19,238 nt of DNA from a virus. Lineage: Duplodnaviria; Heunggongvirae; Uroviricota; Caudoviricetes. Under the pieces are notes generated by a model, which had not been told where the DNA came from, searched no databases, and saw nothing but the letters and a program-made list of their open reading frames with translations. Position 1 is the stretch's first letter; the number at the start of each line of letters is the position of its first letter. Of this stretch, positions 1-2,188 are shown piece by piece. Position numbers and translations under genes: made by a program. The stretch lies in IMG/VR virus record IMGVR_UViG_2671181127_000002. The stretch is one strand, 5' to 3'.

Positions 1-6
1 TACCAG

Positions 7-213
7 ATGGAAAAAATCACAACAGGTGTGTCATACACCACGTCAGCGGTGGGAACGGGCTACTGGTTCCTGCAGTTGCTGGACAGGGTTTCCCCGTCTC
101 AGTGGGCGGCAATAGGCGTGCTGGGGAGTCTGCTGTTTGGTCTGCTGACATATCTGACGAACCTGTATTTCAAAATTAAAGAAGACCGGCGTAAGGCGGC
201 GCGGGGAGAGTAG
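7..213 (+). CDS. S: Class II holin (pinholin), phage 21 S-like; a longer antiholin start may lie upstream of the window
   Basis: 68-aa ORF with hydrophobic helices (YWFLQLL...[23 protein letters not shown]) and a charged C-terminal tail ([13 protein letters not shown]), closely matching my recollection of phage 21 S. It sits directly upstream of a SAR endolysin. The ATG at 7 is only 6 nt from the window edge, so any dual-start upstream codon cannot be seen. Confidence 0.85.
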
Positions 214-216
214 ACG

Positions 217-852
217 ATGAATAAACAATACGAACTGGTTGTTAAAGGGATAAATAATTACCCGGATAAGATTACTGTTACTGTGGCACTGGAAATTGCC
301 GGGCAGCCGTCGTTGTTGTCGCCATATGTGGCGATTAGTCTTGACCGTACTGAAGGTGCCACGCTGGAATTTTACGAAGCTGAGGCGAAAAAACAGGCGA
401 AGCAGTTTTTCATGGATATTGCTGCCGCTTTATGTGAAGGGGATGAGCAGTCGCCGGAAAAGCGCCCCATAATTTTAGAGGCGCAGGATGTGTTGATAAC
501 CTACAGAGGAAAACTACCGGGAATAATTACTGGTTCTCTGAAGACGCCACCGACGGCATTGCGGTCAAAAAACGATGATATTGAATCACGCATTGAAAAA
601 CTGGAGTGCTATATCGCTGAATTGAAAAAAAGCACCCCAACAAAAAATGAGGTGCTTGCAGCAGATGAAATGAAAGAAACTATTCTTGATCGCGCGGCGC
701 ATCTAAGCTGCGCTTCACGGTTGAAAGAGCATCTTCAGCGGCCTGAAGAAAAACGCCGCGATGAGCAGTTCGCGGCGTTTTACGATTATTGCATTGAAGT
801 TACTCGCAGGAATTTTGTGAAGGCTTTTGAGGAGAGTAAATCTCTTCAGTAA
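217..852 (+). CDS. Hypothetical protein (211 aa), cargo gene inserted between holin and endolysin
   Basis: Intact ORF whose ATG is 3 nt after the holin stop (TAG 211..213), with a GGGGAGAG Shine-Dalgarno-like sequence upstream. It is AT-richer than the flanking phage genes. There is no signal peptide or TM segment; the C-terminal half is charged and helical. I recognise no family. Confidence 0.6.
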   Translation: MNKQYELVVKGINNYPDKITVTVALEIAGQPSLLSPYVAISLDRTEGATLEFYEAEAKKQAKQFFMDIAAALCEGDEQSPEKRPIILEAQDVLITYRGKLPGIITGSLKTPPTALRSKNDDIESRIEKLECYIAELKKSTPTKNEVLAADEMKETILDRAAHLSCASRLKEHLQRPEEKRRDEQFAAFYDYCIEVTRRNFVKAFEESKSLQ

Positions 853-1060
853 GCTTAATGGCGGACGCTGCAATTAATTCAGGAAGGTCCGCAAGGTCAT
901 CTGTCAGTGGGAATGATGAAAAATCGGCGGCAGTTCTGTTAAGAATTGCTTTAACTAATTCCTTTTCCTCATCCGGCAACACGTTGATTAGAGCTACGAC
1001 TGCTTGCCTGAGTGCGATTAAATCAGCAAAAGTTTGTTTTGGTAGATTTGGATAATCCAT
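800..1060 (-). CDS. Hypothetical small acidic protein (86 aa), convergent with and overlapping the 3' end of the 211-aa ORF
   Basis: Taken from the 800..1285 minus-strand ORF, starting at the internal Met (MDYPNLPKQ...) because that ATG (revcomp of 1058..1060) is preceded by GAGGTG at good spacing. Codon usage is AT-rich and the protein is acidic. The longer ORF would run antisense into the endolysin start, so the upstream extension is rejected. Confidence 0.4.
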   Translation of the reverse strand: MDYPNLPKQTFADLIALRQAVVALINVLPDEEKELVKAILNRTAADFSSFPLTDDLADLPELIAASAIKLTEEIYSPQKPSQNSCE

Positions 1061-1171
1061 AGTCACCTCTGTGTTTATCAGATTGACATACCCTGGCCAG
1101 CGCCCACCACTGGCGGGGTGAAGGCTTAACATATCCAGGGATTCGGAACCGATAAATCCTGATAAATATCC

Positions 1172-1705
1172 ATGAACGCAAAAATCAAATACGGCCTGTC
1201 GGCTGCCGTTCTGGCGCTGATTGCCGCAGGGGCTTCTGCGCCTGAAATTCTCGACCAGTTTCTGGATGAAAAGGAAGGTAACCACACCACGGCATACCGT
1301 GATGGTGCAGGTATCTGGACCATCTGCCGTGGTGCCATCATGGTGGATGGCAAACCTGTCGTTCCGGGCATGAAGTTGTCGAAGGAAAAATGCGACCAGG
1401 TTAACGCCATTGAGCGTGATAAAGCGCTGGCGTGGGTGGAGAAAAACATCAGAGTGCCGCTGACCGAACCCCAGAAAGCGGGGATCGCGTCATTCTGTCC
1501 GTATAACATTGGTCCCGGTAAGTGTTTCCCGTCGACGTTTTATAAACGAATTAATGCAGGCGATCGCAGGGGAGCGTGTGAGGCGATTCGCTGGTGGATT
1601 AAGGACGGTGGCAGGGACTGCCGTATCCGCTCAAATAACTGTTACGGTCAGGTATCCCGGCGTGATCAGGAGAGCGCGCTGGCGTGCTGGGGAATCGACA
1701 GATAA
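1172..1705 (+). CDS. R: SAR endolysin (T4-lysozyme-like muramidase, GH24), phage 21 R-like
   Basis: The N-terminus has a weakly hydrophobic Ala/Gly-rich signal-anchor-release segment (YGLSAAVLALIAAGASAP). It is followed by the lysozyme catalytic spacing E-x8-D-x5-T (EGNHTTAYRDGAGIWT). It sits in the lysis cassette with a pinholin, which is the usual partner. Confidence 0.9.
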   Translation: MNAKIKYGLSAAVLALIAAGASAPEILDQFLDEKEGNHTTAYRDGAGIWTICRGAIMVDGKPVVPGMKLSKEKCDQVNAIERDKALAWVEKNIRVPLTEPQKAGIASFCPYNIGPGKCFPSTFYKRINAGDRRGACEAIRWWIKDGGRDCRIRSNNCYGQVSRRDQESALACWGIDR

Positions 1706-1799
1706 GAAGAATATTTTGCTGAAAAATGACGTTGGCCAACGCGGGCGGATAACACGAAATCCTGCGAACTGGCAAAACCTAAGTGAATAAAAGTAAAAA

Positions 1800-1835
1800 C
1801 CCCGTTTGTTGGCAGCAAGCGGGGTTTTGTGTTTC
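1800..1835 (+). terminator. Rho-independent terminator-like hairpin downstream of the endolysin
   Basis: A 9-bp stem (CCCCGTTTG / CAAGCGGGG, one G-U pair) with a 7-nt loop, followed by TTTTGTGTTT and preceded by an A-run. Confidence 0.55.
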
Positions 1836-1861: not shown

Positions 1862-2044
1862 ATGGAAAAGTATAAACGAATTCTGTTGAGGTTGACTATG
1901 AAAAACGGCCTTGAACTGAAAGCGCCTGTAACTGATGACATCAGCAGAGCGCTGGCTTTTGCTATTAAGTGGGTGGCGGTCGGTATTGCTGTGTCTCCGA
2001 TGCTGTATGGACTGGCAAAACTGGTCATTGCGTTGAAATCGTGA
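1862..2044 (+). CDS. Hypothetical small membrane protein (60 aa) between endolysin and Rz
   Basis: ATG at 1862 is preceded by AGGGAGA. The N-terminus is amphipathic and basic; the C-terminus has a hydrophobic segment (FAIKWVAVGIAVSPMLYGLAKLVIAL). The ORF track lists it with a GTG start at 1829 that lies inside the terminator tail, so I prefer 1862. Confidence 0.4.
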   Translation: MEKYKRILLRLTMKNGLELKAPVTDDISRALAFAIKWVAVGIAVSPMLYGLAKLVIALKS

Positions 2045-2056
2045 AGAGGATTAAGC

Positions 2057-2188
2057 ATGTCAGACAAGCTCATAACGCTGGCGAAGATCCTCTGTGTAAT
2101 CGTCGGCATTTCATTTTCACTAATGCTGGTTGCTATTTTTCTTTCCCTGGGCTGGATGATGTTGTCTTCGTCGGGGATGCTGGGGTGA
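2057..2188 (+). CDS. Hypothetical hydrophobic peptide (43 aa), not in the ORF track because it is under 60 aa
   Basis: My own translation from ATG 2057 gives [43 protein letters not shown] with stop TGA at 2186..2188. AAGAGGA sits 5 nt upstream. The start is 12 nt after the previous stop and the stop is 7 nt before the Rz start. It is a single-TM-like peptide. Confidence 0.35.

What the first reader, a model, noticed from the sequence alone, without database searches (positions are those of the whole stretch)
800..1171. Convergent, overlapping small acidic ORF on the opposite strand, between the cargo gene and the endolysin
This is the only credible minus-strand gene in an otherwise uniformly + strand late operon. 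The 86-aa ORF has a good GAGGTG ribosome-binding site and its last 53 nt overlap the 3' end of the 211-aa gene, tail to tail. Transcription of it would run antisense to late transcription. The pair (larger protein plus small acidic antisense-overlapping partner) resembles the layout of toxin-antitoxin or effector-immunity modules, but that is speculative. The 1061..1171 region upstream of it also holds two GATAAAT repeats 10 bp apart, just before the endolysin start, which could be a regulatory site.
Basis: partly seen in the sequence, partly recalled or inferred. Interest (0 to 1): 0.5.

Follow-up and report, generated by a model that had tools for sequence, protein, structure and literature searches.

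The report
Real antisense cargo gene in lysis cassette
The small opposite-strand ORF between the prophage's YdfR gene and its endolysin is a genuine, conserved gene of unknown function, one of at least seven interchangeable small cargo genes that sit behind the same conserved leader in lambdoid prophages; nothing supports it being an antitoxin or immunity protein.

Summary
ORF86 lies at 800..1060 on the minus strand, with GAGGTG five bases before the ATG. Its last 53 nt overlap the 211-aa YdfR-family gene, and two GATAAAT copies lie upstream.

It is a real gene:
- It is phrog_2572 and is annotated in RefSeq as a hypothetical protein.
- It occurs in 314 of 5426 complete E. coli genomes.
- Relatives 41-58% identical occur in other E. 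coli and Salmonella prophages.
- Between clades it is the only fully open frame and has the lowest dN/dS (0.27-0.36).
- Start codon, RBS and a terminator hairpin about 20 nt after the stop are kept in all clades.
- AlphaFold predicts an acidic three-helix protein with no known fold relative.

The GATAAAT block is part of a roughly 75-nt leader abutting the endolysin start. It holds the only positionally conserved sigma-70-like site (TTTATC, 17 nt, TATGTT). The same leader precedes at least seven unrelated minus-strand cargo genes in other prophages, so this is a cassette hotspot.

The YdfR C-terminus is read antisense through the cassette, including a relic of another cargo. No toxin, antitoxin or defence homology was found, and the layout is convergent, so the TA reading is unsupported. 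Expression and function are untested.

The parts
800..1060 (-). ORF86: 86-aa acidic (pI 4.3) predicted three-helix cytoplasmic protein, phrog_2572. This is the cargo gene of the cassette.
   Evidence: ORF. phrog_2572 match at E=3.6e-50. PGAP 'hypothetical protein' WP_001625288. Homologues. Inter-clade dN/dS 0.27-0.36 and the only fully open frame. AF2 model with helices 8-27, 30-48 and 56-74, mean pLDDT 70.
1064..1069 (-). Ribosome-binding site GAGGTG, 5 nt from GAGG to the ATG.
   Evidence: Other clades keep a functionally equivalent site, TAAGGA followed by 6 nt and ATG/GTG.
750..781 (-). Intrinsic-terminator-like hairpin for ORF86 (AAAACGCCGCGA / TCGCGGCGTTTT), with a T-run continuing to about 745. 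It begins 18 nt after the stop. It lies inside the + strand codons KRRDEQFAAF.
   Evidence: Fold -22.5 kcal/mol, z -3.0. Conserved in all clades with one compensatory pair. Missed by the consensus scan because the T-run is counted into the stem.
800..852 (.). 53-nt tail-to-tail overlap of ORF86 and the YdfR-family ORF. It encodes the low-confidence C-terminal tail of ORF86.
   Evidence: The overlap is 59 nt in the other clades. pS falls in the overlap (0.41 against 0.64). pLDDT is below 50 for residues 78-86.
1128..1156 (-). Candidate sigma-70 promoter for the cargo gene: -35 TTTATC (1156..1151, one GATAAAT copy), 17-nt spacer, -10 TATGTT (1133..1128). The predicted transcription start is near 1121.
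   Evidence: It is the only positionally conserved sigma-70-like site in 8 sequences from at least 3 clades. The invariant columns are TTATC and TAT..T. It falls below the threshold of the consensus scan. Inferred, not shown.
1151..1167 (+). Two GATAAAT copies 10 bp apart (ATTTATC on the cargo strand). One is the candidate -35 element and the other lies just upstream of it.
   Evidence: The 23-nt block is conserved in Salmonella loci that lack an adjacent endolysin.
1097..1171 (-). Conserved leader shared by all cargo types. It abuts the endolysin start codon and includes a 5' UTR hairpin at about 1091..1118.
   Evidence: The same sequence lies upstream of the 210-aa, 104-aa, 122-aa, 90-aa, 87-91-aa and 98-aa cargo genes. 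Scan with the 24-mer. UTR fold.
217..852 (+). YdfR-family late gene, 211 aa. Residues 1-112 are the DUF1327 domain. Residues 113-211 are encoded on the antisense strand of the cassette DNA.
   Evidence: Pfam DUF1327 at E=6.6e-40. The ORF is kept open to the same stop in length variants of 211, 183, 176, 171, 169 and 67 aa. PGAP calls only the first 114 codons, as a pseudogene.
680..751 (-). Relic of another cargo gene (phrog_18136 type): its last 23 codons plus stop (FLQAAEDALSTVKRSLDAPRDQE*).
   Evidence: 22 of 23 residues identical.
630..657 (-). Second minus-strand terminator-like hairpin followed by T7. It is the terminator of the relic phrog_18136 cassette.
   Evidence: -15.5 kcal/mol, z -3.8. 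Identical sequence follows the stop of intact phrog_18136 genes.
557..1103 (.). Approximate extent of the cassette insertion/deletion relative to phage H-19B, which has a 115-aa YdfR and no cargo. The junctions lie in the imperfect repeat CCACCGaCGGC / CCACCaCTGGC.
1172..1705 (+). SAR-type endolysin R (Phage_lysozyme), divergent neighbour of ORF86.
7..213 (+). Phage-21-type class II holin (pinholin). The longer start form is cut off by the window edge.

Best explanation
ORF86 is a genuine small protein gene. It forms a self-contained leftward transcription unit of the moron type, planted head-on in the Q-dependent late operon of a lambdoid prophage, between the YdfR gene and the endolysin.

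The unit consists of:
- a conserved leader of about 75 nt abutting the endolysin start, which holds the GATAAAT repeats and a weak but positionally conserved TTTATC-17-TATGTT promoter-like site;
- a short structured 5' UTR;
- its own RBS;
- the 86-codon ORF;
- an intrinsic terminator hairpin that lies inside the YdfR coding sequence.

ORF86 is one allele of a cassette hotspot. The same leader drives at least seven unrelated small cargo genes in other prophages. Most of those examined are under about 105 aa, hydrophilic, and acidic to near-neutral in pI.

The late-strand YdfR ORF simply reads on, antisense, through whatever cassette DNA is present. That explains its variable C-terminus and the 53-nt overlap.

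Inferred mechanism:
- The cargo is transcribed by host RNA polymerase whenever late transcription is off, that is in the lysogen or immediately after infection.
- It is shut off when Q-modified polymerase, which ignores the embedded hairpin, runs head-on through it and produces fully complementary RNA.
- The product is a cytoplasmic acidic three-helix protein. It most likely acts by binding and inhibiting a host or rival-phage factor, as an accessory gene of phage-host or phage-phage conflict.

Shown here: the gene is real, the RBS and terminator are conserved, the cassettes are exchanged, and the leader is shared.

Inferred only: promoter activity, timing of expression, and protein function.
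For: Gene reality:
- ORF, RBS and overlap.
- Full-length match to phrog_2572.
- Called by PGAP and by GenBank submitters.
- Present in 314 of 5426 complete E. coli genomes.
- Relatives at 41-58% identity in E. coli and Salmonella, with a start codon and a different but functional RBS.
- Inter-clade dN/dS is 0.27-0.36 in the ORF frame, against 0.31-0.57 for the shadow frame and 0.46-1.7 for the other four. The ORF frame is the only one without internal stops and has the best substitution scores.
- All indels among variants are in frame.
- AF2 gives three helices with a core pLDDT of about 80.

Terminator:
- Hairpin at 750..781 plus a T-run.
- Kept at the same place in all clades, with a compensatory G-C to A-U change.

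Leader and promoter:
- The only conserved-position sigma-70-like site in all 8 sequences.
- The GATAAAT block is retained in Salmonella, where the neighbour is a terminase gene rather than an endolysin.

Hotspot:
- The identical leader precedes phrog_2411, phrog_1853, phrog_18136, phrog_25324, phrog_10490 and a 210-aa orphan.
- H-19B-type phages have the leader but no cargo.
- A relic of a phrog_18136 cassette with its own terminator lies next to ORF86 in this window.
- G+C is lower in the cassette (42-46%) than in the endolysin (53-56%).

Late operon context: a Q antiterminator lies upstream.
Against: - There is no expression data of any kind.
- The promoter candidate matches only 7 of 12 consensus positions, and the consensus scan reports nothing there.
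- In E. coli the leader always abuts the endolysin, so it could serve endolysin expression instead.
- 7 of 86 loci have ATG changed to ACG and 4 have lost the stop codon, so the gene is dispensable in some lineages.
- Within E. coli, divergence is too low for dN/dS to be decisive (0.49 against 0.44 for the shadow frame).
- The AF2 model is only moderately confident (pLDDT 70, pTM 0.42).
- No fold or sequence relative points to a function.
- The ORF86 family travels with a late-strand small ORF even in Salmonella and in stand-alone 67-aa forms. This could mean a real two-protein partnership that the read-through model underrates.
Confidence: 0.6

Rival explanations
1. ORF86 and the C-terminal tail of the late-strand gene are a functional two-protein pair. 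One version of this is antitoxin/immunity plus toxin/effector. Another is a lysogeny/lysis toggle in which the lysogen-expressed acidic ORF86 neutralises the late-expressed tail module or the RNase E-binding YdfR protein.
For: - The ORF86 family is always found overlapping a late-strand ORF by 53-59 nt. This holds when that ORF is fused to DUF1327.
- It also holds when the ORF stands alone as 67 aa in E. coli or as 73 aa after Rz in Salmonella.
- Late-strand length variants are all in frame.
- pS is lower in the overlap.
- ORF86 is acidic and the tail carries basic patches (KKRRDE, RRNFVK).
- K-12 YdfR binds the RNase E catalytic domain (PMC13232886).
Against: - The genes are convergent and so cannot be co-transcribed.
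- Neither protein matches a toxin, antitoxin or defence family.
- Conservation of the late-strand tail across clades is confined to the hairpin and the overlap, and could be imposed by ORF86 and its terminator.
- The non-overlapping part of the late-strand ORF is weakly constrained (pN/pS 0.20/0.35).
- Other cargo genes behind the same leader have quite different late-strand tails.
- Part of this window's tail is the antisense of a dead cargo gene.
- Co-inheritance is forced by the physical overlap.
Confidence: 0.17
2. The unit acts mainly at the RNA level. The 3' end of the ORF86 transcript, about 100 nt complementary to the end of the ydfR message, or transcriptional collision itself, tunes late-operon expression across the S-to-R junction. 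This would resemble lambda OOP RNA acting on cII. The protein would be secondary.
For: - A conserved convergent overlap of 53-59 nt, plus a hairpin embedded in the late-strand codons.
- The unit sits between holin and endolysin, where the dosage ratio matters.
- The leader persists in phages that have lost the cargo.
Against: - The ORF itself is under purifying selection at the protein level across clades.
- Cargo genes are unrelated in sequence, so any antisense target differs from cassette to cassette.
- In Salmonella the unit lies after the spanin genes, not between holin and endolysin.
Confidence: 0.1
3. The conserved GATAAAT leader serves the endolysin on the + strand, in translation initiation or mRNA structure. 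It is not a promoter or operator for the minus-strand cargo, which would then be transcribed from elsewhere or not at all.
For: - In E. coli the block always lies immediately 5' of the endolysin ATG, and it is present in phages without cargo.
- The endolysin has no obvious Shine-Dalgarno sequence.
- The promoter match is weak.
Against: - The block, together with the downstream TATNNT at fixed spacing, is kept in Salmonella loci where no endolysin is adjacent.
- Every cargo gene starts 64-131 nt to its left, with no other room for a promoter.
Confidence: 0.15
4. ORF86 is not a gene. It is either a shadow of the + strand ORF 858..1055 or a chance ORF in noncoding DNA.
For: - Within E. coli the shadow frame has a similar dN/dS (0.44 against 0.49).
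- The shadow frame stays partly open in other clades.
- Some annotations omit ORF86.
Against: - The shadow ORF has no RBS, a start codon that varies, and internal stops across the region.
- It has poorer substitution scores and lower identity between clades.
- It has no family match and a basic, Ser/Ala-rich composition.
- ORF86 keeps its start, RBS, length and terminator at 41% protein identity.
Confidence: 0.04

Closest known systems
Phage morons (Juhala et al. 2000, HK97/HK022), for example lambda bor, which is transcribed opposite to the late genes next to the lysis cassette (from my own knowledge)
   Same: An extra gene is inserted between two genes of a late operon and is absent from close relatives. 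It carries its own terminator and a putative promoter, has lower G+C than its neighbours, and is oriented against late transcription near the lysis genes.
   Different: Bor is a lipoprotein with a known phenotype. ORF86 is a soluble acidic helical protein of unknown function. Its 3' end and terminator are overprinted by the preceding late gene. It is one of several exchangeable alleles behind one shared leader.
Hotspots of accessory or antiviral genes in prophages (P2/P4 hotspots, Rousset et al. 2022, PMC9122126, listed)
   Same: A fixed genomic position with conserved flanks holds many unrelated cargo genes in different prophages.
   Different: The P2/P4 cargo are mostly large, recognisable defence systems. 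Here the cargo are single small proteins of 86-210 aa with no PADLOC match. The slot lies inside the lysis cassette of lambdoid phages, in antisense orientation.
Anti-CRISPR (acr) loci of Mu-like and other phages (from my own knowledge)
   Same: Diverse, unrelated, small and often acidic proteins occupy the same position behind a shared promoter.
   Different: No adjacent aca-type HTH regulator is present. No Acr homology was found. The orientation is antisense to the flanking operon. No inhibitory activity has been tested.
Lambda OOP RNA/cII, and type I toxin-antitoxin pairs with 3' overlap such as B. subtilis txpA/RatA (from my own knowledge)
   Same: Convergent transcription units whose 3' ends overlap by tens of nucleotides around a shared hairpin.
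   Different: In those systems one partner is a non-coding RNA, and in type I TA the toxin is a small hydrophobic peptide. Here both strands encode soluble proteins, and ORF86 is under protein-level selection.
YdfR / DUF1327 (E. coli K-12 Qin prophage)
   Same: The upstream gene's first 112 residues belong to this family. The position between holin and endolysin is the same.
   Different: K-12 ydfR is 103 aa and its stop overlaps the rrrQ start. It has no leader and no cargo.

Membership tests
phrog_2572 (PHROGs family, unknown function) | Full-length match to the family profile | tested here: met
   E=3.6e-50, residues 1-86 matched to profile positions 1-86 of 86.
Pfam DUF1823 (PF08853), the label used in GenBank PV340545 | Score at or above the gathering threshold of 25 bits | tested here: not met
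   15.3 bits, E=0.023, over 30 residues only. Only 6 of 14 family members match at all, none above the cut-off.
Moron (autonomous accessory transcription unit in a phage operon) | Present or absent between the same two genes in related phages | tested here: met
   H-19B has YdfR followed by R with no cargo. The insertion/deletion spans about 557..1103. 23 of 95 leader-bearing loci have no cargo.
Moron (autonomous accessory transcription unit in a phage operon) | Own transcription terminator | tested here: met
   In silico only. GC-rich hairpin plus T-run 18 nt after the stop, -22.5 kcal/mol, conserved with one compensatory pair.
Moron (autonomous accessory transcription unit in a phage operon) | Own promoter | tested here: inconclusive
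   The consensus scan finds none. A weak TTTATC-17-TATGTT site is the only positionally conserved candidate in 8 sequences and lies in a leader shared by all cargo types.
Moron (autonomous accessory transcription unit in a phage operon) | Expressed from the repressed prophage | not testable with these tools
   No transcriptome or proteome data are accessible here. No paper in the held library mentions the protein accessions.
Type II toxin-antitoxin module | Two adjacent genes co-transcribed on one strand | tested here: not met
   The genes are convergent with a 53-nt tail overlap.
Type II toxin-antitoxin module | Homology of either partner to a known toxin or antitoxin family | tested here: not met
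   No Pfam, NCBIfam, PHROG-function or PADLOC match. No PDB sequence or fold match.
Type I toxin-antitoxin module | Small hydrophobic membrane toxin, and an antisense RNA that is non-coding | tested here: not met
   ORF86 has GRAVY -0.06, is acidic and has three amphipathic helices. The late-strand tail has GRAVY -0.86. Both strands encode proteins.
Polymorphic toxin with cognate immunity gene | Conserved N-terminal domain, a variable C-terminal toxin domain, and an immunity gene immediately downstream on the same strand | tested here: not met
   The N-terminal domain is conserved and the C-terminus is variable. However, the C-terminus is the antisense of cassette DNA, including a dead gene. 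No toxin domain is present and the small gene is on the opposite strand.
Anti-defence (acr-like) variable locus | Several unrelated small proteins at one position behind a shared upstream region | tested here: met
   At least seven unrelated cargo families lie behind an identical leader. hhalign shows no relation between them.
Anti-defence (acr-like) variable locus | Adjacent aca-type HTH regulator, and demonstrated inhibition of a defence system | tested here: not met
   No HTH gene lies next to the cassette. Inhibition is not testable with these tools.

The most novel reading that the evidence does not exclude
The holin/YdfR-endolysin junction of lambdoid prophages is an undescribed variable locus. 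One conserved leftward promoter drives at least seven interchangeable small soluble proteins, ORF86 among them. These proteins act as inhibitors of host defences, of rival phages or of RNase E-linked RNA decay. They are made in the lysogen or immediately after infection, and are automatically switched off by head-on Q-antiterminated late transcription. This would amount to an acr-like anti-defence or host-takeover locus with a built-in transcriptional-collision off-switch.
Probability: 0.2. Interest if true: 0.7.

Novelty: new member of a known kind. Interest (0 to 1): 0.4.

Why it matters
As a single gene it is ordinary: an already catalogued hypothetical phage protein arranged like a moron.

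What the follow-up adds:
- It shows why YdfR-family proteins have ragged, mosaic C-termini, and why PGAP marks them as pseudogenes. They read antisense through exchangeable cassettes.
- It identifies a compact and easily testable hotspot in the lysis cassette of E. coli and Salmonella lambdoid prophages, including Stx-phage relatives. One short conserved leader precedes many unrelated small cargo genes there.

If the cargo prove to be conflict proteins, either anti-defence or exclusion factors, the leader would be a convenient handle for mining more of them. The head-on arrangement would then be a simple example of expression control by convergent late transcription.

Tried and rejected
1. dN/dS within E. 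coli. Only 14 distinct sequences were available and divergence was at most 8%. The ORF frame (0.49) and the third-position-matched shadow frame (0.44) could not be separated. Inter-clade comparisons were needed instead.

2. Function by homology. Pfam, NCBIfam, PHROG and PADLOC, PDB sequence search, and Foldseek against PDB and BFVD gave nothing significant. The third fold-search job (AFDB) was not used, because a three-helix model at pLDDT 70 gives unspecific hits.

3. TPR/CHAT-repeat proteins of 975 and 1305 aa in the exhaustive search (P0021, P0022). Rejected as repeat or compositional matches.

4. P0023. It looks like a degraded or mis-sequenced copy and was ignored.

5. Relationship of ORF86 to the other cargo proteins. 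None was significant. The best was the 90-aa phrog_2411 protein, at a pairwise E of 0.02 and probability 2.4%.

6. AlphaFold of a linker fusion of the late-strand tail with ORF86, to test for an interaction.

7. Rfam. Only sub-threshold matches were found.

8. Literature. No paper in the library names the protein accessions or phrog_2572. DUF1327 occurs in a single paper. A Gifsy defence-gene paper concerns the immunity region and is not relevant. No description of this hotspot was found.

9. K-12 Qin prophage as a source of TSS data. K-12 lacks both leader and cargo.

10. The genome-contig scan returned only E. coli, because that collection holds one genome per species.
Full report
**Context.** The window begins in the lysis cassette of a lambdoid E. 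coli prophage.
- A phage-21-type class II holin lies at 7..213.
- A 211-aa ORF lies at 217..852. Its first 112 residues are the DUF1327/YdfR domain.
- A SAR-type lysozyme lies at 1172..1705.
- Rz and Rz1, a Rha-family gene, terminase, head genes and tail genes follow, all on the + strand.

A 99.8% identical prophage in strain STEC2018-607 shows the same order downstream of a Q antiterminator.

- An ATG-initiated ORF of 86 codons runs 800..1060 on the minus strand.
- GAGGTG lies at 1064..1069, and the stop at 802..800.
- The overlap with the 211-aa ORF is exactly 53 nt.
- The product is acidic, with pI 4.34.
- GATAAAT occurs at 1151 and 1161.
- In the PGAP annotation of the near-identical prophage, it is the only intact minus-strand CDS between Q and J.

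**It is a real gene, and an already catalogued one.**
- It matches phrog_2572 over its full length.
- PGAP annotates it as a hypothetical protein.
- GenBank phage records call it a 'DUF1823 containing protein'. That label rests on a sub-threshold hit of 15.3 bits against a cut-off of 25.
- The DNA occurs in 314 of 5426 complete E. coli genomes, at 92% identity or more.

Among 86 loci there are only 14 distinct sequences. The ORF is intact in 75 of them, 7 share an ATG-to-ACG change, and 4 have lost the stop. At this divergence dN/dS is 0.49 for the ORF frame. It is 0.44 for the + strand shadow frame 858..1055, whose third codon positions coincide with those of ORF86. The test is therefore not decisive.

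An exhaustive HMMER search found true relatives at 58% and 42% identity, and a profile search added Salmonella members. In comparisons between clades, at 58-67% nucleotide identity:
- the ORF86 frame has dN/dS of 0.27-0.36;
- it has the highest identity and the mildest substitutions;
- it is the only frame with no internal stop;
- the shadow frame scores worse, and the other four frames give ratios of 0.46-1.7.

The relatives keep a start codon preceded by a different but good RBS, TAAGGA followed by 6 nt and ATG/GTG. All indels are in frame. AlphaFold2 predicts three helices (8-27, 30-48, 56-74), with pLDDT of about 80 in the first two and a low-confidence tail. That tail is the part encoded by the overlap.

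No sequence or fold relative with a known function was found.

**Terminator.** Eighteen nucleotides after the stop, on the minus strand, lies the hairpin AAAACGCCGCGA/TCGCGGCGTTTT followed by a T-run (750..781; -22.5 kcal/mol). The consensus scan missed it because the T-run is absorbed into the stem. The hairpin sits at the same place in all clades and has one compensatory G-C to A-U change. It lies inside the late-strand codons KRRDEQFAAF.

**Upstream region.** An alignment of the region upstream of the start codon across clades shows invariant TTATC and TAT..T at fixed spacing. A simple sigma-70 weight-matrix scan picks TTTATC-17-TATGTT/TATTGT as the only candidate at a conserved position in all eight sequences. 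In the window this is 1156..1151 and 1133..1128.

The match is weak, at 7 of 12 positions, and falls below the threshold of the consensus scan. Promoter activity is therefore inferred. One GATAAAT copy is the candidate -35 element and the other lies just upstream of it.

The block is retained in Salmonella loci. There the gene lies after the spanin genes and next to a terminase small-subunit gene, with no endolysin adjacent. It is therefore tied to the minus-strand gene and not only to the endolysin.

**A cassette hotspot.** H-19B has a 115-aa YdfR followed directly by the leader and R. Relative to it, window positions of about 557..1103 are an insertion/deletion, bounded by the imperfect repeat CCACCGaCGGC / CCACCaCTGGC.

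Phage 86 and other loci carry different minus-strand genes in the same place. Their upstream sequence is the same leader, CATGGATATTTATCAGGATTTATCGGTTCCGAATCCCTGGATATGTTAAG...CCAGTGGTGGGCACTGGCG, followed by a cargo-specific RBS.

Of the 95 loci with enough flank:
- 72 have a minus-strand ORF of 50 codons or more starting 64-131 nt away;
- 23 have none.

The cargo fall into unrelated families:

| Cargo | Size | Loci |
|---|---|---|
| phrog_2411 | 90 aa | 30 |
| ORF86 (phrog_2572) | 86 aa (listed as 88 where the scan picked an upstream GTG) | 16 + 1 of the P0020 type (93 aa) |
| phrog_1853 | 104 or 122 aa | 8 |
| phrog_18136 | 87-91 aa | 4 + 2 truncated |
| phrog_25324 | 98 aa | 1 |
| phrog_10490 | about 105 aa | 1 |
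| 210-aa orphan | 210 aa | 3 |

A further 6 loci carry a basic 79-84-aa ORF (MKPVSRHFFKGR) that I could not assign and that may be spurious.

None of the cargo proteins tested (ORF86, the phrog_1853 pair and the 210-aa orphan) matches a defence family; the other four were scanned against PHROGs only. hhalign found no relation of ORF86 to the three other cargo proteins compared.

This window also contains a fossil of a second cassette. Positions 680..751 on the minus strand encode the last 23 codons of a phrog_18136 gene, with 22 of 23 residues identical. The hairpin at 657..630 is that gene's terminator.

**The late-strand partner.** The YdfR ORF stays open to the same stop in variants of 211, 183, 176, 171 and 169 aa, all in frame. 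Stand-alone forms of 67 aa in E. coli and 73 aa in Salmonella also overlap the ORF86 family by 53-59 nt. This could indicate a functional pair.

Several points argue against that:
- Across clades, conservation of the tail is confined to the hairpin and the overlap.
- The non-overlapping part is only weakly constrained (pN/pS 0.20/0.35).
- Other cargo have other tails.
- Part of this window's tail is the antisense of a dead gene.

I therefore favour read-through, or overprinting, of the late gene into the cassette. This also explains why PGAP marks these YdfR genes as truncated pseudogenes. The reduced pS in the overlap (0.41 against 0.64) is consistent with dual coding there.

K-12 YdfR binds the RNase E catalytic domain and may bind RNA (PMC13232886). 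Whether that bears on ORF86 is unknown.

**Mechanism (inferred).**
- Host RNA polymerase transcribes the cargo leftward from the leader when the late operon is silent.
- The transcript ends at the embedded hairpin.
- On induction, Q-modified polymerase from pR' ignores the hairpin and runs head-on through the unit. It makes the YdfR fusion protein and fully complementary RNA, which should silence the cargo.
- The protein is a small acidic helical binder. Its membership in a set of interchangeable small cargo genes points to a role in phage-host or phage-phage conflict.

None of this has been observed directly.

**Verdict on the toxin-antitoxin or effector-immunity idea.** The layout is convergent, there is no family homology, the cargo are exchangeable, and the partner is weakly constrained. 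These points speak against it. It is not excluded as a protein-protein pair, and I give it about 0.17.

**Novelty and interest.** The gene is a catalogued hypothetical protein arranged like a classical moron, so the finding as stated is a new member of a known kind. The shared-leader hotspot and the antisense overprinting of YdfR are useful and apparently undescribed; I found nothing about them in the held library. They remain incremental. Interest: 0.4.

Noticed in passing
window 1097..1171; loci L003, L114, L117, L120-L239: The roughly 75-nt leader abutting the endolysin start is shared by at least seven unrelated minus-strand cargo genes: phrog_2411, 2572, 1853, 18136, 25324, 10490 and a 210-aa orphan. 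Of 95 evaluable IMG/VR loci, 72 carry a cargo and 23 carry none. The YdfR-endolysin junction is therefore a cassette hotspot.
   Followed up: partly
window 630..751 (minus strand): This is a relic of a second cassette. It holds the last 23 codons of a phrog_18136-type gene (22 of 23 identical, stop at 682..680) and that gene's terminator hairpin with a T-run (657..630). The 211-aa YdfR ORF reads antisense through it.
   Followed up: yes
window 217..852; L105 18568..18909: PGAP annotates only the first 114 codons of the YdfR-family gene and flags it as a pseudogene 'missing C-terminus'. In fact a 211-aa ORF is intact, and its in-frame length variants (183, 176, 171 and 169 aa) are kept open to the same stop.
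   Followed up: partly
window about 545..560 and 1095..1110; L004 690..720: Phage H-19B lacks the cassette. Its junction falls in an imperfect direct repeat (CCACCGaCGGC / CCACCaCTGGC), which suggests loss or gain by microhomology-mediated recombination. The right-hand repeat lies in the 5' UTR hairpin of the leader.
   Followed up: partly
window 1796..1828 and 1862..2188: A strong + strand terminator-like hairpin (15 pairs) follows the endolysin. After it come two small hydrophobic + strand ORFs, of 60 aa (1862..2044) and 43 aa (2057..2188), which PGAP annotates as hypothetical proteins. This may be another accessory insertion, between R and Rz.
   Followed up: no
L016-type loci among L008-L087: Seven loci share an ATG-to-ACG change at the ORF86 start codon and four have lost its stop codon. 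The gene is therefore dispensable or decaying in some lineages.
   Followed up: no
whole window: GATAAAT occurs 7 times in the window against 1.6 expected; only 1 of 200 shuffles reaches 7. The five copies outside the leader were not examined.
   Followed up: no
L092, L101-L104 (Salmonella): In Salmonella the ORF86-family gene and a 73-aa late-strand ORF lie after the spanin gene (DUF2514) and before the terminase small subunit (DUF1441 or Nu1 type). They occur in prophages whose holin and endolysin types differ from those of the window. The unit therefore moves between phage backgrounds.
   Followed up: partly
proteins P0021, P0022: Two long TPR/CHAT-type repeat proteins matched ORF86 in 5-6 stretches each (E of 2e-8 and 5e-5). 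I judged this a repeat or compositional resemblance (DLxDLxEAISAxQKAV against DLADLPELIAASAIK), not homology.
   Followed up: no
window 1..6: The window starts 2 nt inside the longer (71-aa) start form of the class II holin. Only the 68-aa form (7..213) is complete.
   Followed up: no
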